DNA from: a virus
Lineage: Duplodnaviria; Heunggongvirae; Uroviricota; Caudoviricetes
Direction: 5' to 3' (one strand)
Length of the DNA: 8,156 bases
Virus record (IMG/VR): IMGVR_UViG_2913167280_000012
Span: 1 to 8,156 of that record
In this document: positions 1 to 8,156 of the stretch, in pieces
Numbering within the stretch: position 1 is the stretch's first letter
How the letters are laid out: each line of letters opens with the position of its first letter
Position numbers and translations under genes: made by a program
Notes under the pieces: generated by a model
What the model saw: the letters and a program-made list of their open reading frames with translations, nothing else
The model's database searches: none
What the model was told of the DNA's origin: nothing

Positions 1-990
1 TTATGTGGATGAAATGTGGATGCCTCCTTTTAATGGATTAAGTGAAATTGCATCCTGGAGGAAATCAGGAGCGAGGTGCGCATAGGTCATAGTTTGCTGG
101 ATCGTGGCGTGCCCCATAATTCGCTGGAGCGTAAGTATATTTCCTCCATTAATCATAAAGTGAGCAGCAAAGGTATGGCGTAGAACATGTACAGCCTGTC
201 CTTTTGGTAGGTCTGGCTTAACACTGCGAAGCACCTTGCGATATTCCTCATAATTGACGTCAAACAAAAGGCCGGATTTCTTTGTTTTGATCTCACTAAC
301 AACTTCATCAGAGACAGGAATAATTCGAACTTTTCCGTTTTTAGTTTTGTTAAACGTCACGCGATTATTGATGATGTGTTCCGCGCGCAGATTTTTCGCT
401 TCTCCCCATCTCGCCCCAGTACTGAGACAAAGTAGCGTAATCCGCCGAGCATCACCGCTTACTGCATCCAGCAATTTGGCGATTTCTTCCGTAGTGAGGT
501 ACGTCATTTCGGGTGATTTTCGTTTCAAAGAGGGGAGGGCGCGGAGTGGATTTTCTCCGTGAAATTCCCCGGCATTTGCCAGGAGTGTAAACATTCCTCC
601 GAGATCCGACTCATCACGCCGAACAGTAGACTCTTTTACTCCCAAGGATAAGCGGGAGCTTCGATAAGCTGCCATGAAACGAGCATTAATCTGGCTAACC
701 CTTGGATCATTCATTTCTTTGATGATTTTTTTCAATCTGGTTAGAACGCCGTTAGCATATGGCTTATTGCGTCCACCCAATTCCCACCATAACGGAAGCA
801 GATCTGAGAGATGACGTTGCTCTGTTGGCTTTTCAAGCCATTCCTTATCGTGCATGTGGCTGAGAACATAGCGCTCAAAGGCCACTGCATCTGCCTTTTT
901 CTTAAAAATCCGCTGAATCCGACGTCCACTTCGGCCACGCGGTCTAACATCCACTTTATATCGTCCACCATCGAGTGCTTTAATTGCCAT
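1..990 (-). CDS. int: P2-type tyrosine integrase (site-specific recombinase)
   Basis: Minus-strand ORF ending in TAA at 1-3. The protein closely resembles my recollection of phage P2 Int (MAIKxLDxGRYxVD... N-terminus, LSTGARWGEA, HxLRHTFAxHFMINGG box, GHxxIxQTMxYAHxAP tyrosine region, SLNPLxGG C-terminus). I prefer the start at 990 (MAIKALDGG...) over the track's 1023 because a GGAGGG Shine-Dalgarno sits about 7 nt upstream of 990 and none precedes 1023. Confidence 0.92.
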   Translation of the reverse strand: MAIKALDGGRYKVDVRPRGRSGRRIQRIFKKKADAVAFERYVLSHMHDKEWLEKPTEQRHLSDLLPLWWELGGRNKPYANGVLTRLKKIIKEMNDPRVSQINARFMAAYRSSRLSLGVKESTVRRDESDLGGMFTLLANAGEFHGENPLRALPSLKRKSPEMTYLTTEEIAKLLDAVSGDARRITLLCLSTGARWGEAKNLRAEHIINNRVTFNKTKNGKVRIIPVSDEVVSEIKTKKSGLLFDVNYEEYRKVLRSVKPDLPKGQAVHVLRHTFAAHFMINGGNILTLQRIMGHATIQQTMTYAHLAPDFLQDAISLNPLKGGIHISST

Positions 991-1056
991 TGGCAAGCCC
1001 TCCGGTGAAACGAGGAAAGACATTTCCAGTTTGTAAAACGTAAGAATAATAAAGGG

Positions 1057-1359
1057 TTAACCAATTTTCCTTTCGGATGGGGGTAAATCCGTTGGCTCTT
1101 GCCCATAGTGTGCGAGAGCCGGAGCTATCTGCCCGGATTCAGGCGCAATTTTTCCAGTCATAAACCACAAGGCATATTTTTCGAACCGCGGGCAATTTAA
1201 GATTTTCATCATTACATCCCCTTTGGGTATGGATTCGCCAGTCTCATAACGCCATAGCGCGTTATGCGGAATACCTATTAACTCCGCAGCCTCATTGCGA
1301 CTTGTAATGCGCTCACTTTCACGCATTAGTTTTAGTTTTTCACCAATCTCCAAAATCAT
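1057..1359 (-). CDS. C: P2 C-like immunity repressor (small HTH protein)
   Basis: Minus-strand ORF immediately upstream of int in the same orientation. The C-terminal half (MMKILNCPRFEKYALWFMTGKIAPESGQIAPALAHYGQ) matches my recollection of P2 repressor C (QIAPESGQIAPALAHFGQ). I start it at the second in-frame ATG (1357-1359), giving ~100 aa like P2 C, with GGAG about 8 nt upstream; the track's 1386 start adds 9 residues and has no RBS. Confidence 0.82.
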   Translation of the reverse strand: MILEIGEKLKLMRESERITSRNEAAELIGIPHNALWRYETGESIPKGDVMMKILNCPRFEKYALWFMTGKIAPESGQIAPALAHYGQEPTDLPPSERKIG

Positions 1360-1453
1360 ATTGCATTCTCCAAATATGTAGTGCATTATGCAAACAATGA
1401 GTTGAACTATGGGGTAAATATCTCACCTATACCCCAAACAGGGAGATTATCAC
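1360..1453. promoter_or_regulatory. Divergent C / cox intergenic switch region (candidate Pc/Pe promoters and operator)
   Basis: 94 bp between divergently oriented C and cox. Contains a -35-like TTGAAC (1402-1407) on the plus strand, an inverted repeat TGCAT-T-ATGCA (1382-1392), a direct repeat AAATAT (1372-1377 and 1417-1422) and an AT-rich tract. Position matches the P2 Pc/Pe switch, but I could not place exact -10 hexamers. Confidence 0.5.
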
Positions 1454-2440: not shown

Positions 2441-2683
2441 ATGGACCAGGAATACAAAACTCTCGTCAATAAAGCACTTGAGCGTTTCCATTTTCGCATA
2501 AGCGCATCAGGCACTCATGCTGAGCTCGCAGCCAGAGAGTCATTGACCAGGGCCATCAAGAGTATATACGACACAGCTTTTTACATTGACGACCCGGACG
2601 CGCTCGACGAGCTTTCCATACTCGTCTGCGCCGCAGAAAACGGGGACCATATTGAGCCATATAAACTGGGGAATATTGCATGA
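2441..2683 (+). CDS. hypothetical acidic early protein (80 aa)
   Basis: ORF in the operon frame series. Its TGA stop (2681-2683) overlaps the ATG (2680-2682) of the next small ORF. RBS is weak. Confidence 0.55.
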   Translation: MDQEYKTLVNKALERFHFRISASGTHAELAARESLTRAIKSIYDTAFYIDDPDALDELSILVCAAENGDHIEPYKLGNIA

Positions 2684-2793
2684 GTATATTTATCTCATGG
2701 CTTGTTCTGATTATTTCGGTGGCCTGCGCTATTGGAATTATGCGAATTATTCATTCAGTGAAAAAGATTGAGCGTTTTTTCTCTGACGAATAA
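2680..2793 (+). CDS. small single-pass membrane peptide (37 aa, MSIFISWLVLIISVACAIGIMRIIHSVKKIERFFSDE)
   Basis: Not in the supplied ORF track (too short); found by hand translation. ATG at 2680 overlaps the upstream stop as ATGA, with GGGGA about 8 nt upstream. Residues 3-21 form a hydrophobic helix followed by a basic/charged tail; TAA at 2791-2793. Confidence 0.4.
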   Translation: MSIFISWLVLIISVACAIGIMRIIHSVKKIERFFSDE

Positions 2794-2885
2794 CAGCACA
2801 AATAAAACACCACATTAAATAAGAAAACGTGAAAGCCATCCGCATTAGCGGAGGTATTTGTACATCCAAATAACGGAGAAAGAAA

Positions 2886-3254
2886 ATGAACGCAAAAACC
2901 GAAGACACCCTTATCTCTCTGAAAATGTTATCCGCGATGGAGCGTGAAATGCACGAGCGAGCAACAAAGGTAGGCGCTCACATTCTCAGCGTTCATGCAC
3001 TGATGGTAGCCGGCGTCATAGAAAATGCCGCCGAGCTCATCGAGGAGCAACACAAGGAAATTAGCGACCTTAAAGCTCAGCTCGCAAACGTAACATCTGC
3101 ATCCGACAACAAAGGGAGAGCCGTTCGCCTGGCCAACATGGATGCTTGCATTTATGTAATCGTGGGTGAAAACCCGGACCTTTTCCTTCTGAGACGACTA
3201 ACCGAAGACAGGGCATTTGAAGTCCACAAGTCCGAAGTGACCTTCATTAGCTGA
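2886..3254 (+). CDS. hypothetical early protein (122 aa)
   Basis: ORF with GGAG 7 nt upstream of the ATG, preceded by a 92-bp AT-rich intergenic gap (2794-2885). No family recognised. Confidence 0.62.
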   Translation: MNAKTEDTLISLKMLSAMEREMHERATKVGAHILSVHALMVAGVIENAAELIEEQHKEISDLKAQLANVTSASDNKGRAVRLANMDACIYVIVGENPDLFLLRRLTEDRAFEVHKSEVTFIS

Positions 3255-3265
3255 CGGGCGATGCA

Positions 3266-3595
3266 ATGGAAAAGCTGAAATACCACATGACTCTGATGAG
3301 TCACATTCTGAAAAGCGCAAGTGGCTTTTGTGTATACCCGTTCAGCCCTTCATGGGATGCAGAGCTACAGCAGCTACTGAATGAAGGCGTTCTCGTCGCA
3401 ACGGACGAGCACAACGCGATTTTTCATCACAACGGCAACGTCGTTGAAGTATGGATTGCTAATCGCTGGTACGGCTACGGCTGGCTGAACCGCGTTAACG
3501 GACGCGAGACTGACGCCCGTTGCACCCGCCCACGCTTTCGCACCATGTACCGCCTGCATCAAATGGTGCAGGCCTTCCAGGCAAAGGAAACGTAA
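3266..3595 (+). CDS. hypothetical early protein (109 aa, Trp/Tyr-rich C-terminal half)
   Basis: ORF 11 nt after the previous stop. Weak RBS. Its TAA stop (3593-3595) shares one base with the next ATG (TAATG). Confidence 0.55.
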   Translation: MEKLKYHMTLMSHILKSASGFCVYPFSPSWDAELQQLLNEGVLVATDEHNAIFHHNGNVVEVWIANRWYGYGWLNRVNGRETDARCTRPRFRTMYRLHQMVQAFQAKET

Positions 3596-3798
3596 TGGCA
3601 ATTAAGCGTTTTTCCGTCATTCGTTTCACCTCCAGAGGGCGTGAATACGAAGTTGACGAACGGCTGATTAAAACGCTCGACCGTCACCGTTCGCAACCTG
3701 ACGCGCATCACATTTATCTCACTGACGACACTTACTTCTGCGCCACCAACGTGGTGCAGGTGAATCTTATCAGACAGGTACAGGAGTCACGCCGATGA
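3595..3798 (+). CDS. hypothetical small protein (67 aa)
   Basis: I start it at the internal ATG 3595 (MAIKRFSVIRF...) rather than the track's 3520, because 3520-3594 lies inside the upstream gene. AGGA sits about 8 nt upstream and the start overlaps the upstream stop. Confidence 0.55.
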   Translation: MAIKRFSVIRFTSRGREYEVDERLIKTLDRHRSQPDAHHIYLTDDTYFCATNVVQVNLIRQVQESRR

Positions 3799-4040
3799 CC
3801 ATTCTGGACTACATTGCCGCCAATCCGGGCTGTAGCGGTGGAGAAATCGCCGCAGCACTGAATACCCCAACTACAGCCATTAATGCGGAGTTACGCCGAC
3901 TCTGGCGCAGCGGTTCAGTCATAAGAAAAGAGCGCAAAACAGGCGGTCGCTTTTCTTACCAGATAAACCCGATGCCGTTCGGGTGCAGCAATCCACTTAC
4001 CAACATGTTTAACCAGCTACTGAAGGAAGCCAGAGCATGA
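3795..4040 (+). CDS. hypothetical small protein, possible winged-helix DNA-binding fold (81 aa)
   Basis: ATGA overlap with the upstream gene; AGGAG 8 nt upstream. The pattern ILDYIAANPGCSGGEIAAAL...INAELRRLWRSGSVIRKER looks like a winged-helix regulator; that is a pattern judgement, not a search result. Confidence 0.6.
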   Translation: MTILDYIAANPGCSGGEIAAALNTPTTAINAELRRLWRSGSVIRKERKTGGRFSYQINPMPFGCSNPLTNMFNQLLKEARA

Positions 4041-4336
4041 GCGCCATCAACCACCAGGAATTACGCGAACTGGCAACTGACCTTCAACGAATGGCAACGC
4101 ATCAAAAATTACTGGCGTTTCGCGCAATGCTCTCGCCGTCTGCTGTGCTGGCACTGCTGGATGAGCTGGAGCACGCCAGAACCACGGCTCCTGCCATTCG
4201 CCTGACACTCCATCATGAAATTGCTGATTTCTGCGCGACGCTGGAGGCACCAGGCGAACCGGAAACGCCGGAAGCAATACAGCAAGAGCTGCTGCAACGC
4301 ATTGACAAGGTTTTTGATTTTTTTCTGAACCACTAA
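4037..4336 (+). CDS. hypothetical early protein (99 aa)
   Basis: ATGA overlap with the upstream gene; AAGGAAG about 7 nt upstream. Last ORF before the non-coding island. Confidence 0.6.
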   Translation: MSAINHQELRELATDLQRMATHQKLLAFRAMLSPSAVLALLDELEHARTTAPAIRLTLHHEIADFCATLEAPGEPETPEAIQQELLQRIDKVFDFFLNH

Positions 4337-4368
4337 GAAACCAGAACATGCACACACAAAAAAACCGC

Positions 4369-4398
4369 TTGCCATGCCGCAATCAGTCAGGTTACATT
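4369..4398 (+). promoter_or_regulatory. candidate sigma70-like promoter (TTGCCA-N18-TACATT)
   Basis: -35-like TTGCCA (4369-4374) and -10-like TACATT (4393-4398) in a non-coding region, which would start transcription near 4405. Hexamer matches are only 5/6 and 4/6. Confidence 0.25.
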
Positions 4399-4404
4399 TC
4401 CGCT

Positions 4405-4479
4405 GCACCTCATAAAACGGGTGCCGGGTTTCGCAGCCTGCTGACAACCAAAGCGCACAACCGCGCCAGCGGTTTTTTT
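4405..4479 (+). ncRNA. candidate small RNA (~75 nt) bounded by promoter-like hexamers and a terminator-like hairpin
   Basis: Between the candidate promoter and the terminator. Internal complementarity: GCACC (4405-4409) with GGTGC (4420-4424), and CGCTGC (4401-4406) with GCAGC (4433-4437). No credible ORF. Entirely a prediction. Confidence 0.22.
4459..4479 (+). terminator. candidate Rho-independent terminator
   Basis: Hairpin AACCGC (4459-4464), loop GCCA, GCGGTT (4469-4474), running into a 7-T tract (4473-4479). The stem is short, and flanking GCGCACAA / TTGTGCG could extend it or form an alternative structure. Confidence 0.45.
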
Positions 4480-4491
4480 GTGCGTACTGTA

Positions 4492-4520
4492 TTGCCACGT
4501 CTTTTTCGCACACGAATTAT
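4492..4520 (+). promoter_or_regulatory. second candidate sigma70-like promoter (TTGCCA-N17-AATTAT)
   Basis: TTGCCA (4492-4497) and AATTAT (4515-4520), which would start transcription at the base of the long hairpin beginning at 4521. TTGCCAYG is a direct repeat of the hexamer context at 4369-4376. Weak consensus match. Confidence 0.22.
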
Positions 4521-4596
4521 GGCGGGGCGTACGGGGCCGACTTCGGTCGGGCCGGGTTCTTTGGTTGCCGGTACTGCGAACCCCGTACGTCTCGCC
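4521..4596. repeat. 76-bp imperfect inverted-repeat / long-stem structured element
   Basis: GGCGGGGCGTACGGGG (4521-4536) pairs with CCCCGTACGTCTCGCC (4581-4596) over 16 bp with G-U pairs or mismatches. It encloses a 5-bp hairpin with a UUCG tetraloop (CCGAC-TTCG-GTCGG, 4537-4550) and a second CCGG-based hairpin (4551-4571). Non-coding. Confidence 0.4.
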
Positions 4597-4658
4597 ACCC
4601 ACAGTTTCGCAGCTCTGGATGGTGAGTTTTCAAAACTTACAACCAAAGAGGCCACCCC

Positions 4659-4889
4659 ATGGCAAACCGCAAACAGCACCGCGCTATCGCGGAGCGTCGT
4701 CACATCCAGACTGAAATCAACCGCAGACTTTCCCGCGCATTCCGTGTCGCTAAAATCATGCACATCAATATGCTGCATGAGCGTAGCTGCGAACTTTCAA
4801 ACCTCTACTCATCCGCTGTTTTCAGCTATCTGGCGGATGATCTGCGCGAGCTTCAGCAGCTCATCCAGCAGCAAAACAAACTCCATTAA
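4659..4889 (+). CDS. hypothetical basic small protein (76 aa)
   Basis: ORF with AAAGAGG 7 nt upstream of the ATG; first gene after the non-coding island. Arg/Lys-rich N-terminus (MANRKQHRAIAERRHIQTEINRR). No family recognised. Confidence 0.6.
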   Translation: MANRKQHRAIAERRHIQTEINRRLSRAFRVAKIMHINMLHERSCELSNLYSSAVFSYLADDLRELQQLIQQQNKLH

Positions 4890-4961
4890 TTCCTGTTCCG
4901 GGCCTTTCCTGCACCTTGCGGCGGGAGGCCTTCGCACATCTGTAACAAGAGGATTGCCGCA

Positions 4962-5327
4962 ATGATTCTCGCCAACGACTTTCTTGAATATCTGCTCAAC
5001 ACAGAGCGTGATCTTGCCGTTCGCGTGCGTGAACGTTATGACATGTACCTGAAATCCCTGCCTGTACCGCAGCTCGCTGACGGAAAGATTGTTATTGATG
5101 GTCGTTACATGATTGACAGCCACGAGGGAAATTACAGGCTTTACCGTATTGAAGGTGGCACCCCGTCCGTTATTGGCATTTACCAGCGCCCATCCTCTGC
5201 GATCGTCGATGTGATTGCCGACAGCATCCGCATCACACATCACTATGCCGACACAGAAGACACCGTGCTGGAAATTCAGCGGCTGGCTACCGTCTGCCGC
5301 GACACCCTGAATGGCATGACGAAGTAA
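4962..5327 (+). CDS. hypothetical protein immediately upstream of the replication initiator (121 aa)
   Basis: ORF with AAGAGGA 8 nt upstream of the ATG; ends 6 nt before the gpA start. It occupies the slot held by small accessory replication genes in P2-like phages. No family recognised. Confidence 0.65.
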   Translation: MILANDFLEYLLNTERDLAVRVRERYDMYLKSLPVPQLADGKIVIDGRYMIDSHEGNYRLYRIEGGTPSVIGIYQRPSSAIVDVIADSIRITHHYADTEDTVLEIQRLATVCRDTLNGMTK

Positions 5328-5333
5328 ATCACT

Positions 5334-8156
5334 ATGACGGCAGAGTACATCAGGGACTGGCAACAACCGCGCCACGCAGTGGGGCGTGAAGGAACGGGGA
5401 TCCCCGCTCCTGAATCCGCGCTTTCCTCCTGGCTGGATGCCTACCGGGCAGAGAACGAGCGCCGCAAGGAAATGGCTGATGCGGCGTTCTCCGCCACGCC
5501 GCTGGGCAACCTGATTAATAAAAGCCTGGACGCACAGGAAAAACAGGACAAAACCATCACACTGGCAGGAGACGCCAGAAAACAGGCACGCGGCGCAGTG
5601 GATGAAGCCATGGCCTCGCTGCGCCTGCTGCCGTCCTATCTGCGCGATCCGCTTATTCGCCACCTCTCCTTCCTGCGCAAAAAACAGGAAGCCGATCGCC
5701 GGAAAGGCAAAAAGAGCTGGCAGGCGGAACGCTATGCACGCGGAACCCTGCGCAAAATATTCGAACGTCTGGACCGCACCGATCACCGCTGGCTGACACC
5801 GGGTTATCGCTCCCTTGCCGGACGCGAACGCCTGGACGATTTGCTTTACCTGCCGCAGCTCAACAAACACCAGATACAGACGCTGGCCACCATGACGGCG
5901 GCGATGTTCAGCAGCACCTTCGAAAAACTCTGCGATGGCTTTGGCGCGACCGATGGCGAGCTGACCATGGATGTAACGCTGAAGGCGTATCAGATGCTGG
6001 CCCGCATGGCGTTACACCTGCACGCCATGCCTCCACATTATGACGCACTGACAACAGACAAAGACCGGAGGAACGAACCAGACACGGAGCTGCTGCCGGG
6101 CGCAATCCTTCGCCTGACCTGTGCGGAATGGTGGAAACGCAAACTGTGGCTGTTACGTTGCGAGTGGCGGGAAGAACAACTCCGCGCCGCCTGTCTGGTT
6201 TCCAGAAAAACATCGCCCTATCTGAGCCAGGACGCGTTAAGCGAGTTTCGCGCACAGCGCGAGAAAACACGCGATTTCCTGAAAAGTTTCATGCTGGAAA
6301 ATGAAGACGGGTTCACGATTGATCTCGAGACGGTGTATTACGCGGGAGTAAGTAACCCGGTTCACCGTAAGGCAGAAATGATGGCCACCATGAAGGGACT
6401 GGAACTTCTGGCCGAAGCCCGTGGCGACAGAGCGGTGTTTCTGACCGTCACCTGCCCGTCAAAATACCACGCAACAACGGAGAACGGTCATCCGAACCCC
6501 AAATGGAACGGGGCCACCATGCGCGACTCCAGCGATTACCTGGTTAACACGTTTTTTGCGGCGGTCCGCAAAAAACTGAACCGCGACGGCCTGCGCTGGT
6601 ATGGCATCCGCACGGTGGAGCCTCACCATGACGGCACTGTGCACTGGCATATGATGGTCTTTGCACATCCGGACGAGATTGAAACCATCGTGTCCCACGT
6701 CTGCGATATTGCCATTCAGGAGGACCGCCACGAGCTGGGCGATGACATAACTCCGCGTTTTAAGGCGGAGTATGTCGACGGCTCAAAAGGCACACCAACC
6801 AGCTACATCGCCACCTACATCGGAAAGAACCTGGACAGCCGCGCCGTGGATGGCATCGACCCGAAAACGGGCAAGCCACGCGTTGACCACGAAACCGGAA
6901 AATCAATGGCCGAGAGCGTGGAGCGCGCCATCGGCTGGGCGCGCCTTCACCGGGTCCGTCAGTTCCAGTTCTTTGGCATCCCCTCCCGTCAGGTGTGGCG
7001 TGAACTGCGCCGCCTTGCCAGCCAGATGGCACGCAATCCGGAAGGCCCGCAACGGCTGAAAGATGATGCAATGGATGCGGTACTCGCTGCCGCCGATGCC
7101 GGGTGTTTTGCCACCTACATTGAAAAACAGGGTGGCGTGCTTGTTCCACGCAAGGACTACCTGATTCGCACCGCCTACGACCTCGCAGATGAGCTGAACG
7201 ATTACGGCGAACAGAGCGTACAGATTTACGGGATCTGGTCACCACTCATCGGGGAATCCTCCCGTGTGTGCACGCATCCGGATAACTGGAAGTTGGTAAG
7301 ACGTAAACCAGAACCAGAAGACAACGCCCACGAAAATGGTTTTGACCTTCAGGGCGGCCCTGCCGCCCCTTGGACTCGTGGCAATAACTGTCCCCGTGCA
7401 CAGGAAACGGACAACAACGGGACAGAACAGCCGGAAGAACGACCAGCACCGTGGCCGCAGCTTCCTGACGGCGTTGATGTGGATGAATGGATGCGCTCAC
7501 TGAAACGGCACGAACGCCGGGCGCTGATGCGTTCGCTGCGTGACAAACAGGCAAAAAACAGCAGTGATGAAATGCAGAGCTGGACACAGAGCCGCAAACA
7601 GCAGCGGCCTTTGCCTGATAACCACGAATTACTCGCTAAAGAATGGCGGGAGTCTGCCGAATCTCTCGGCCTGCATATCGGTGAACAGCAGATGCAGCAC
7701 CTGTTGCGGGGCGGCAGCCTGTACGTTGACGGCAGCATCATTGCACCGCAGGGATTTGAAATTGTACGCAAACCGGATATCCGCCCGGACAGCCGAATCA
7801 CGCAGCTCTGGCAGCGCCTGAGCCGCAATCACGGCGTAAGCAGCACGGAGATCCGTCATAACCCGGTCGCCAGCTATCTGGAACAGCTGGGGGCATCAGA
7901 CCCCGAAGCCGCCGCACGCCTGGCATCCACACTTCAGCAAGACCAGAACACCATGAAAACACCCGTTACCGTGCTTTCTGACATGCTGCGCGCCATCCGT
8001 GACGCAGAGCACGCACAGAGAATCAGTGAAACCACTGAACGCGCCCGCCGCAAAGCAAACCTGCTGCGGGGTGGCCTGACCAGTGGAAACAAAAAACAGA
8101 CAGAAACGGGATTCACAAATCCCGTAAATGAGCAAAAAACGCGCCGCGATATATGA
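5334..8156 (+). CDS. A: GpA-type rolling-circle replication initiator (HUH endonuclease, P2 gene A family)
   Basis: 940-aa ORF ending at the window edge (TGA 8154-8156). It carries an HUH motif VHWHMMVF (nt 6639-6659, His437/His439) and a YxxxY tyrosine pair in SYIATYIGKN (Tyr491/Tyr495, nt 6804-6818), matching the arrangement I recall for P2 GpA (Tyr450/Tyr454). Weak RBS, so translation may be coupled to the upstream gene. Confidence 0.9.
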   Translation: MTAEYIRDWQQPRHAVGREGTGIPAPESALSSWLDAYRAENERRKEMADAAFSATPLGNLINKSLDAQEKQDKTITLAGDARKQARGAVDEAMASLRLLPSYLRDPLIRHLSFLRKKQEADRRKGKKSWQAERYARGTLRKIFERLDRTDHRWLTPGYRSLAGRERLDDLLYLPQLNKHQIQTLATMTAAMFSSTFEKLCDGFGATDGELTMDVTLKAYQMLARMALHLHAMPPHYDALTTDKDRRNEPDTELLPGAILRLTCAEWWKRKLWLLRCEWREEQLRAACLVSRKTSPYLSQDALSEFRAQREKTRDFLKSFMLENEDGFTIDLETVYYAGVSNPVHRKAEMMATMKGLELLAEARGDRAVFLTVTCPSKYHATTENGHPNPKWNGATMRDSSDYLVNTFFAAVRKKLNRDGLRWYGIRTVEPHHDGTVHWHMMVFAHPDEIETIVSHVCDIAIQEDRHELGDDITPRFKAEYVDGSKGTPTSYIATYIGKNLDSRAVDGIDPKTGKPRVDHETGKSMAESVERAIGWARLHRVRQFQFFGIPSRQVWRELRRLASQMARNPEGPQRLKDDAMDAVLAAADAGCFATYIEKQGGVLVPRKDYLIRTAYDLADELNDYGEQSVQIYGIWSPLIGESSRVCTHPDNWKLVRRKPEPEDNAHENGFDLQGGPAAPWTRGNNCPRAQETDNNGTEQPEERPAPWPQLPDGVDVDEWMRSLKRHERRALMRSLRDKQAKNSSDEMQSWTQSRKQQRPLPDNHELLAKEWRESAESLGLHIGEQQMQHLLRGGSLYVDGSIIAPQGFEIVRKPDIRPDSRITQLWQRLSRNHGVSSTEIRHNPVASYLEQLGASDPEAAARLASTLQQDQNTMKTPVTVLSDMLRAIRDAEHAQRISETTERARRKANLLRGGLTSGNKKQTETGFTNPVNEQKTRRDI

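What the first reader, a model, noticed from the sequence alone, without database searches (positions are those of the whole stretch)
2441..2793. Unannotated 37-aa membrane peptide translationally coupled to an 80-aa acidic protein
The ORF track misses a 37-codon ORF whose ATG overlaps the upstream stop as ATGA. It encodes one predicted transmembrane helix followed by a basic tail (KKIERFFSDE). Small membrane peptides in temperate-phage early operons are often toxic or host-targeting: Kil-like division inhibitors, type I toxin-like peptides, superinfection-exclusion or abortive-infection effectors. The coupled acidic partner could be a modulator. This gene pair has no counterpart that I recall in the P2 early operon.
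Basis: partly seen in the sequence, partly recalled or inferred. Interest (0 to 1): 0.5.

Follow-up and report, generated by a model that had tools for sequence, protein, structure and literature searches.

The report
Conserved phage membrane-peptide gene pair
The 37-codon ORF is a real, strongly conserved gene for a single-helix membrane peptide that always follows, overlapping it by ATGA, an 80-residue acidic protein (DUF4754) in the early lytic operon of P88-like (P2-family) prophages carried by about a quarter of complete E. coli genomes; public databases already annotate it as a hypothetical protein and its function is untested.

Summary
ORF 2680-2793 (37 aa) starts at the ATG of an ATGA that also holds the stop of the 80-aa ORF 2441-2683 (DUF4754, pI 4.8). 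It encodes one hydrophobic helix (residues 2-21) and an amphipathic, mildly basic tail.

It is not new to annotation. Phage P88 lists it as gp07 "membrane protein", and PGAP calls it "hypothetical protein" in all 60 E. coli genomes sampled.

It is under purifying selection: pN/pS is 0.30-0.34 in its own frame and higher in the other five. The ORF is 37 codons in 65 of 67 distinct relatives, and ATGA or GTGA is present in all 67.

In every detectable DUF4754 lineage, down to about 30% identity, an ATGA-coupled small membrane protein follows. Usually it is a 37/41-aa homologue. One lineage has a divergent 49-aa form and one has a 77-aa two-hydrophobic-segment (predicted two-helix) protein with no detectable similarity.

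A conserved hairpin, ATCCGY-N4-RCGGAGG, closes the block, and variable cargo begins after it.

Best reading: a co-translated cytoplasmic protein plus inner-membrane peptide made early in lytic growth, probably acting as a complex on a host envelope process. The target is unknown. I found no support for a type I or type II toxin-antitoxin system or a known defence system. Interest is modest.

The parts
2441..2683 (+). DUF4754 gene: an 80-aa acidic cytoplasmic protein predicted to be a three-helix bundle.
2662..2679 (+). Translation-initiation region of the peptide gene, lying inside the last codons of DUF4754. It holds an SD-like GGGGA about 7 nt before the ATG.
   Evidence: Anti-SD duplex energy is -5.0 to -10.3 kcal/mol in all 11 lineages tested, against a window background mean of -2.0. 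Distant lineages have GGAGG or AGGAGG at the same place.
2680..2793 (+). 37-aa single-helix inner-membrane peptide gene. The ATG overlaps the DUF4754 stop (ATGA). The predicted topology, from the positive-inside rule, is N-terminus outside and C-terminal amphipathic tail in the cytoplasm.
   Evidence: ATGA in 66 and GTGA in 1 of 67 distinct relatives, with 37 codons in 65 of 67. pN/pS 0.30 among close relatives and 0.34 among distant ones, higher in all other frames. Invariant M1 S6 W7 L10 A17 I24 I30 F34. Annotated in RefSeq.
2838..2854 (+). Conserved hairpin or palindrome ATCCGC-ATTA-GCGGAGG, 45 nt after the peptide stop. It marks the end of the conserved block, just before the mosaic joint. 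Its function is unknown; a weak terminator, RNA-processing site or protein-binding site are possibilities.
   Evidence: It occurs once per locus in 39 of 43 loci, including distant lineages. One compensatory CG-to-UA pair, with the other four pairs invariant. RNA fold of the intergenic region has z -3.0. In viral contigs 61 of 120 motif hits have the peptide gene on the same stretch, and in the 40 of these whose coordinates were printed the motif starts about 48 nt after the peptide gene; 57 hits are unrelated. Most relatives lose homology to the window at about 2858-2897.

Best explanation
This is a genuine two-gene module of the early lytic operon of P88-like (Xuanwuvirus, Peduoviridae) temperate phages. 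The operon order is cox-like gene, DUF4761, a 92-aa gene, DUF4754, the peptide gene, and a hairpin.

DUF4754 is a soluble acidic three-helix bundle. The 37-aa product is a single-pass inner-membrane peptide. Its N-terminus is at the periplasmic face, the helix spans residues 2-21, and a conserved amphipathic, mildly basic tail (R22...F34) lies in the cytoplasm.

The ATGA overlap and the internal SD let ribosomes that finish DUF4754 start the peptide, so the two are made together in a fixed ratio (inferred).

Most likely the peptide tail binds DUF4754 and holds it at the inner membrane, or DUF4754 controls the peptide. The complex would then act on a host envelope-associated process when the phage enters lytic growth. 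The nearest positional analogue is the overlapping fil-dhr pair of phage 186, which blocks host division and replication.

What is shown: the ORF is coding, it is conserved, the two genes co-occur, the overlap and SD are kept, and the module sits in the early operon. What is inferred: translational coupling in vivo, topology, physical interaction and host target.
For: Coding status:
- pN/pS is 0.30 (close relatives) and 0.34 (distant lineages) in the annotated frame, and higher in all other frames tested.
- The ORF is 37 codons in 65 of 67 distinct sequences.
- The peptide is more conserved than DUF4754 in nearly every lineage pair, for example 70% against 41% and 51% against 31%.
- Specific residues are invariant in both the helix and the tail.

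Linkage:
- The same 14 phage records hold both genes.
- An exhaustive HMMER search of 1.84 billion proteins found only 30 DUF4754 hits.
- All six distant full-length relatives sit in P2-like early operons and are followed by an ATGA-overlapping small membrane protein. These are 41-aa homologues, a 49-aa divergent homologue (hhalign 93%), or a 77-aa protein with two hydrophobic segments (two predicted membrane helices, by eye) and no detectable similarity.

Coupling: the ATGA overlap and an SD-like element are present in all lineages.

Complementarity: DUF4754 carries -2 to -8 net charge in every lineage and its partner +0.6 to +2.6. The tail has a hydrophobic moment of 0.73, reached by 51 of 5000 shuffles.

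Context:
- The module lies between the cox-like gene and the gpA replication endonuclease, on the same strand, with no promoter-like site before it.
- It is near-core: 1340 E. coli genomes carry the peptide ORF, out of 1465 that match any part of the window.
- In phage 186, fil and dhr overlap and are followed by the terminator tR1 at the equivalent position.
Against: - There is no experimental evidence of translation, membrane insertion, interaction or phenotype. No paper mentions DUF4754, DUF4761 or the peptide sequence.
- The DUF4754 fold is a generic helical bundle with no informative match.
- Adjacent genes co-occur and co-diverge simply because they are linked, so synteny among close relatives is weak evidence. 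The argument rests mainly on about seven divergent lineages.
- Frameshift alleles that alter the tail after about K28 (30-, 34- and 45-aa forms) exist in public genomes. Either the distal tail is dispensable or those prophages are decaying.
- There is no sequence similarity to 186 Fil or Dhr.
Confidence: 0.5

Rival explanations
1. The peptide is a membrane-damaging toxin and the acidic DUF4754 is its protein antidote or chaperone. The pair would be a toxin-antitoxin-like or abortive-infection module carried by the prophage.
For: The gene order, with an acidic small protein first and a hydrophobic, slightly basic one second behind a 4-nt ATGA overlap, resembles type II toxin-antitoxin operons. 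The peptide's size and hydrophobicity resemble type I toxins. The integrase-to-gpA interval of P2-like phages is reported as a minor defence hotspot holding 8% of P2 systems (bioRxiv 10.64898/2026.02.27.708500).
Against: - No PADLOC model matches (best E 0.011 to an unrelated 659-position PbeC profile), and Pfam shows no toxin or antitoxin domain.
- DUF4754 has no recognisable DNA-binding antitoxin fold.
- No promoter-like site lies upstream, and the pair sits inside the early lytic operon, which in P2-type phages is repressed in lysogens (established P2/186 biology).
- It is near-core to the phage lineage rather than swappable cargo. The variable cargo starts after the hairpin.
Confidence: 0.17
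2. The two proteins have unrelated functions. The ATGA overlap only reflects compact phage gene packing, and the peptide acts alone on a host membrane protein (as MgrB or AcrZ do) or on superinfecting phage DNA entry.
For: Four-base overlaps are common throughout phage operons. Other neighbours in P88 relatives overlap the same way, for example 3331/3334 and 3573/3576 in L001. The peptide is better conserved than DUF4754, which could mean it tracks a conserved host target on its own. Invariant S6-W7 and nearly invariant G19 inside the helix suggest specific contacts within the membrane.
Against: DUF4754 was never found without a coupled small membrane protein in any lineage. This holds even in the lineage where the partner is a 77-aa protein with two hydrophobic segments (two predicted membrane helices) and no detectable similarity. 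Other neighbours are less fixed: the 92-aa gene and DUF4761 are absent in some lineages.
Confidence: 0.25
3. It is a type I toxin-antitoxin locus: a small hydrophobic toxin whose translation is held down by a cis-encoded antisense RNA.
For: A sigma-70-like site (TTTTCA-16-CATAAT) lies on the minus strand inside the ORF at 2764 to 2737. The peptide has the size and hydrophobicity of Hok, TisB or Ldr-type toxins.
Against: - The number of promoter-like hits equals the chance expectation (4 found, 4.4 expected).
- The -35 hexamer is not kept in distant lineages.
- Synonymous sites saturate between lineages (pS 0.6-0.8), so there is no constraint at the nucleotide level.
- Rfam finds no RNA there at E up to 1.
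- The gene is an internal cistron coupled to an upstream protein gene, not a separate locus.
Confidence: 0.04
4. The ORF is not translated, and its conservation reflects an RNA or DNA element.
For: The region is AT-rich (35% GC) and short, and a conserved hairpin lies nearby.
Against: The substitution pattern is frame-specific: pN/pS is 0.34 in frame against 0.84 and 2.57 in the two shifted frames. Amino-acid identity is 50-70% where nucleotide identity is only 60-72%. The start codon, the SD and the ORF length are all conserved.
Confidence: 0.03

Closest known systems
Phage 186 fil-dhr pair (early lytic operon; Fil blocks cell division when overexpressed, Dhr depresses host DNA replication)
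   Same: Both are in P2-family phages and sit in the same place: the first block of small genes after the switch genes in the early operon. Both are pairs of small overlapping ORFs (fil and dhr overlap by 14 nt), and both are followed by a stem-loop (tR1 in 186) before a run of non-essential genes and the replication gene A.
   Different: There is no sequence similarity (BLASTP finds no alignment; hhalign probability 0.1%). By eye, neither Fil nor Dhr has a hydrophobic stretch long enough to span a membrane (translations; not computed). The hairpin sequences are unrelated. The function of the window's pair is untested.
Type I toxins (Hok, TisB, LdrD, IbsC, ShoB, DinQ, ZorO)
   Same: All are peptides under 60 aa with one hydrophobic helix and a short charged tail.
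   Different: No conserved antisense RNA or promoter was found. The gene has no separate locus and no long structured 5' UTR. Translation depends on a conserved upstream protein gene. No Pfam or Rfam family matches.
Bacterial small membrane-protein regulators (MgrB-PhoQ, AcrZ-AcrB, Blr-divisome) and the CptB(SdhE)/CptA(YgfX) soluble-plus-membrane pair. This comparison rests on my own knowledge.
   Same: All are single-pass or two-pass peptides of 30-140 aa that work by binding a larger partner. In ygfY-ygfX a small helical soluble protein gene precedes a small inner-membrane protein gene.
   Different: No sequence relationship was detected. The partner or target here is unknown. This module is phage-encoded and expressed in the lytic programme.
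Lambda Kil, Rac KilR, DicB and T7 Gp0.4 (phage or prophage division inhibitors)
   Different: From my own knowledge, these are soluble proteins acting on FtsZ or MinC, and none has a membrane helix. They were not compared with the peptide directly; a scan of Pfam (E up to 10) and PHROGs (E up to 10) returned only insignificant unrelated matches.

Membership tests
DUF4754 (Pfam PF15946) for the 80-aa protein | Match to the Pfam model above its gathering score of 27 bits | tested here: met
   178.8 bits, E 2.3e-53, covering positions 1-80 of 80. Also phrog_2549, E 8e-32.
P88 gp07-type 37/41-aa membrane peptide (an annotated but unnamed protein cluster) | Sequence homology to P88 YP_009113050.1 and position immediately 3' of DUF4754 with an ATGA overlap | tested here: met
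   95% identical to the P88 peptide. Same position and same overlap.
Type I toxin-antitoxin system | A small hydrophobic peptide under 60 aa with one membrane helix | tested here: met
Type I toxin-antitoxin system | An antisense or divergent small RNA with its own conserved promoter that base-pairs with the toxin mRNA | tested here: not met
   There is one promoter-like site on the minus strand, but the hit count is at chance level and the -35 is not conserved in distant lineages. Synonymous sites are saturated. Rfam finds nothing there. The absence of a transcript cannot be proven without RNA data.
Type I toxin-antitoxin system | Toxicity or membrane depolarisation on overexpression | not testable with these tools
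   This needs an expression experiment.
Type II toxin-antitoxin system | A two-gene operon with antitoxin first, often overlapping the toxin gene | tested here: met
   ATGA overlap, with the acidic protein first.
Type II toxin-antitoxin system | An antitoxin with a DNA-binding domain (RHH, HTH, AbrB, Phd/YefM), a toxin from a known superfamily, and an own autoregulated promoter | tested here: not met
   Pfam, NCBIfam and PADLOC show no such domains. The fold is a plain three-helix bundle. No promoter-like site lies upstream.
Known anti-phage defence systems (PADLOC-DB 2.0) | A significant match of either protein to a defence-system model | tested here: not met
   The peptide has no hit. DUF4754 has only E 0.011 to part of PbeC, a 659-position profile.
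Phage 186 Fil / Dhr | Sequence homology | tested here: not met
Bacterial lipoprotein (signal peptidase II substrate) | A lipobox with an invariant Cys and a basic N-terminal region | tested here: not met
   SVAC at residues 13-16 looks like a lipobox. However, C16 is replaced by S, F, M or I in relatives, and there is no K or R in the first seven residues.

The most novel reading that the evidence does not exclude
The DUF4754-peptide pair may be an undescribed class of phage host-takeover device. In this reading a membrane-anchored two-subunit complex, made in the first minutes of lytic growth, binds and switches off a specific host inner-membrane machine, such as the divisome, a protease like FtsH or RseP, or a transporter. 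The membrane subunit would be the specificity element, since it is more conserved than the soluble one and one lineage has a membrane protein with no detectable similarity to it in its place. The conserved hairpin after the pair would then be a regulatory stop that separates this immediate-early block from the variable cargo.
Probability: 0.25. Interest if true: 0.55.

Novelty: new member of a known kind. Interest (0 to 1): 0.33.

Why it matters
About a quarter of complete E. coli genomes carry this peptide gene (1340 of 5426), including O157:H7, EPEC E2348/69, O26:H11 and ST131 strains. No paper in the searched library mentions it, and neither Pfam nor PHROGs has a model for the peptide.

Small membrane proteins are often missed by annotation and are increasingly found to regulate larger membrane machines. 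A phage-encoded one that is tied to a soluble partner and better conserved than its neighbours is a reasonable candidate for finding a host target.

It is also a clear case where comparative evidence alone validates a 37-codon gene. Beyond that it is an ordinary uncharacterised early phage gene, and nothing here points to an unusual mechanism.

Tried and rejected
- Genome-collection scan with the DUF4754 protein.
- The 37-aa query was too short for the homologue search. I repeated it with five upstream in-frame residues added.
- PDB sequence searches with both profiles found nothing significant.
- Literature searches for DUF4754, DUF4761, the peptide sequence, Xuanwuvirus/P88-like and CP-933T found no functional information.
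- Homology to 186 Fil or Dhr is rejected.
- The lipoprotein reading is rejected because the Cys is not conserved.
- The antisense-RNA (type I) reading is rejected as unsupported.
- The idea that the hairpin is a general P2-family element is rejected for the sample examined. In viral contigs it occurs either on the same stretch as the peptide gene (in the 40 listed cases, about 48 nt after it) or in unrelated contigs, which I take to be chance matches.

Full report
**What is in the sequence**

The window is the left arm of a P2-family prophage. It holds:
- an integrase (1-1023, minus strand)
- an HTH repressor (1057-1386, minus strand)
- a cox-like gene (1454-1780)
- DUF4761 (1799-2140)
- a 92-aa gene (2151-2429, phrog_3800)
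- DUF4754 (2441-2683)
- the 37-codon ORF (2680-2793)
- a block of small genes
- a gpA-type replication endonuclease (from 5334)

The closest isolated phage is P88 (Xuanwuvirus, Peduoviridae), at 91% identity over 2100-2858.

The sequence at 2680-2683 is ATGA, so the peptide's ATG overlaps the TGA of the 80-aa gene. The 80-aa protein is acidic, with pI 4.81 and net charge -6. The peptide has a strongly hydrophobic stretch at residues 2-21, followed by RIIHSVKKIERFFSDE, which has a net charge of about +1.

**Annotation status**

The ORF is not unannotated in public records. P88 carries it as SF19_gp07 'membrane protein'. Phage vB_EcoM-569R5 lists it as 'putative membrane protein'. PGAP calls it 'hypothetical protein' in E. 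coli BCE049, E2348/69 and O157:H7 ATCC 35150. The same holds for all 60 records sampled evenly from the 1341 E. coli records that contain it.

In total 1340 of 5426 complete E. coli genomes carry it. Of genomes matching any part of the window, 1465 exist, so the gene is close to core for this prophage lineage.

**Is it a gene?**

Across the first 33 related loci, the peptide is 84-100% identical where DUF4754 is 71-100% identical. Nei-Gojobori counts give pN/pS of 0.30 in the annotated frame, the lowest of the six frames; the next lowest is 0.45 and the other four range from 0.78 to 1.68. DUF4754 gives 0.26.

After more loci were fetched, there were 67 distinct DUF4754-plus-downstream sequences. 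Of these, 66 have ATGA and one has GTGA. The ORF is exactly 37 codons in 65 of them, and the two exceptions are frameshifts in the tail.

Between distant lineages, synonymous sites are saturated (pS 0.6-0.8) while pN is 0.16-0.32. Pooled pN/pS is 0.34 in frame, against 0.84 and 2.57 in the shifted frames.

An SD-like G-cluster lies 6-10 nt before the ATG in every lineage. Its duplex energy with the anti-SD is -5.0 to -10.3 kcal/mol, against a background mean of -2.0. AlphaFold2 with 20 family members gives a single helix over residues 2-35 at pLDDT 88. I regard coding status as settled short of experiment.

**The pair is a unit**

In the phage collection, tblastn finds DUF4754 and the peptide in the same 14 records and nowhere else; the one extra peptide hit has E 3 and is noise. 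Neither P2 nor 186 has them.

DUF4754 is a very narrow family. A word-indexed search of 5.8 billion proteins gave 23 hits, and every one that carries a source name is from Escherichia or an Escherichia phage. An exhaustive profile search of 1.84 billion representatives gave 30 hits, including six full-length distant relatives at 25-45% identity.

I looked up the contigs of all six. Every contig long enough to show context is a P2-like early operon, with integrase, HTH repressor, Cox, usually DUF4761, a derepression protein and GPA.

In every one, the gene after DUF4754 overlaps it by ATGA and encodes a small membrane protein:
- Four lineages have 41-aa homologues of the 37-mer, for example MNIFISWLILIIAVFCAIGIVRIIDAVKDIESFFTGEKRRK.
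- One lineage has a 49-aa form that is probably a divergent homologue (hhalign 93%).
- One lineage has a 77-aa protein with two hydrophobic segments, read by eye as two membrane helices, and no detectable similarity.

The 41-aa forms also carry E. coli source names.

The family alignment has invariant M1, S6, W7, L10, A17, I24, I30 and F34, and nearly invariant G19, R22, K28 and E31. Conservation therefore covers both the membrane helix and the tail. DUF4754 stays acidic (-2 to -8) and its partner slightly basic (+0.6 to +2.6) in all lineages. The tail is amphipathic, with a hydrophobic moment of 0.73 that only 51 of 5000 shuffles reach.

**What DUF4754 looks like**

**An extra part: the hairpin**

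Forty-five nucleotides after the peptide stop lies ATCCGC-ATTA-GCGGAGG (2838-2854). The motif TCCGY-N4-RCGGAGG occurs exactly once in 39 of 43 loci, always at this position, and this includes the distant lineages. The four loci without it are 186 and the three loci of the 77-aa-partner lineage, one of which (L038) ends before that position.

The loop varies. One lineage has a compensatory CG-to-UA change, and four of the five pairs never vary. The intergenic RNA folds better than shuffles, with z -3.0. The hairpin lacks a proper U-tract and has no Rfam match.

A scan of viral contigs for the motif gave 120 stretches. In 61 of them the peptide gene lies on the same stretch; in the 40 whose coordinates were printed, the motif starts about 48 nt after it. 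A further 57 are unrelated contigs, and two show only weak integrase similarity. The element therefore belongs to this module and is not a general P2-family element in this sample.

Most relatives lose homology with the window just after the hairpin, at about 2858-2897, and the downstream genes fall into several unrelated classes. The hairpin thus marks the boundary between a conserved immediate block and variable cargo. Its function is unknown. A weak terminator, an RNA-processing site or a protein-binding palindrome are all possible.

**Mechanism**

The module sits in the operon that P2-type phages transcribe from the early promoter on infection or induction, which the immunity repressor shuts off in lysogens (established P2/186 biology). 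No promoter-like site precedes it.

Phage 186 offers a positional parallel. Directly after its switch genes come fil, which blocks division when overexpressed, and dhr, which inhibits host replication. They overlap and are followed by the terminator tR1. There is no sequence similarity between those proteins and the window's pair.

My best reading is a co-translated complex of a soluble protein and a membrane anchor that acts on a host envelope-associated process early in lytic growth. The strongest argument for a joint function is that DUF4754 was never found without an ATGA-coupled small membrane protein. This holds even in the lineage whose partner shows no detectable similarity to the peptide. 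Interaction, topology and target are inferences.

**Rivals**

- A toxin-antidote or abortive-infection module fits the gene order and the charges. It lacks any defence or toxin-antitoxin family match and has no own promoter. It also sits in a near-core lytic block rather than in cargo.
- Independent functions with incidental overlap remain plausible, at about one in four.
- A type I toxin-antitoxin reading rests on one antisense promoter-like site. That site is at chance level and is not conserved.
- A non-coding explanation is excluded by the frame-specific substitution pattern.
- A lipoprotein reading fails because C16 is not conserved.

**Verdict**

This is a real, conserved gene pair that public records already annotate but nobody has characterised. 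The peptide family has no Pfam or PHROGs model and does not appear in the searched literature. It is a new member of a known kind, namely small phage-encoded membrane proteins in early operons. Interest is modest, because nothing in the evidence points to an unusual mechanism. Its prevalence in E. coli, its conservation above that of its neighbours and its obligate pairing make it a reasonable target for a small-protein study.

Noticed in passing
window 2838-2854 (stem 2839-2843 / 2848-2852): A conserved hairpin or palindrome, ATCCGY-N4-RCGGAGG, lies 45 nt after the peptide stop. It is present once in 39 of 43 related loci, including distant lineages. One pair shows a compensatory change, and there is no U-tract and no Rfam family. 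It marks the mosaic joint before the variable cargo.
   Followed up: yes
window 4405-4479 and 4515-4602 (+): Rfam finds isrK (66 bits) and a C4 antisense RNA (87 bits), plus a weak a1/b1 target match at 4392-4444. They lie just upstream of the 'derepression protein' ORF (4659-4889). This looks like a P1/P7-style c4-ant immunity element inside a P2-like early region. Two long ORFs in the ORF list overlap or adjoin these RNAs (4348-4965 on the plus strand, which covers them, and 4809-5870 on the minus strand, which starts about 200 nt downstream); the plus-strand one is probably spurious.
   Followed up: no
window 2762-2785 (A5 run at about 2761-2765, T6 run at about 2774-2779); proteins P0017-P0025, P0147-P0149: Public genomes hold frameshift alleles of the peptide that change or truncate the tail after about K28. 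They are 45-, 34-, 35- and 30-aa forms, and one 34-aa form was seen on 388 contigs. Their sequences diverge from the 37-mer near two homopolymer runs. This could be prophage decay, a dispensable distal tail, or slippage-prone sites.
   Followed up: partly
window 2858-5330, compared with L001-L003 and L035-L041: The genes between the hairpin and the gpA gene differ between otherwise close relatives. Examples are 122-aa, 138-aa and 67-aa hypothetical genes, winged-helix regulators, ParE-like proteins, an Rv2179c-like exonuclease, a D12 methyltransferase, and SPFH or Ash proteins. This fits the minor integrase-to-gpA hotspot reported for P2-like phages.
   Followed up: partly
L036 930-1679 and L037 1897-2646: In the lineage with the 77-aa membrane partner, a 249-aa protein matching Phage_GPO_N (a capsid-scaffold/protease N-terminal domain) is encoded right after cox, in place of DUF4761. 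That is an odd location for such a domain.
   Followed up: no
window 2764-2737 (minus strand): A sigma-70-like site, TTTTCA-16-CATAAT, lies antisense inside the peptide ORF. The -35 hexamer is not conserved in distant lineages, and the number of such sites in the region equals the chance expectation.
   Followed up: yes
L044 3497-3610 (E. coli E2348/69): The peptide gene has an out-of-series locus tag (E2348C_RS28425, among RS096xx neighbours). This suggests it was missing from the original annotation and was added at re-annotation.
   Followed up: no
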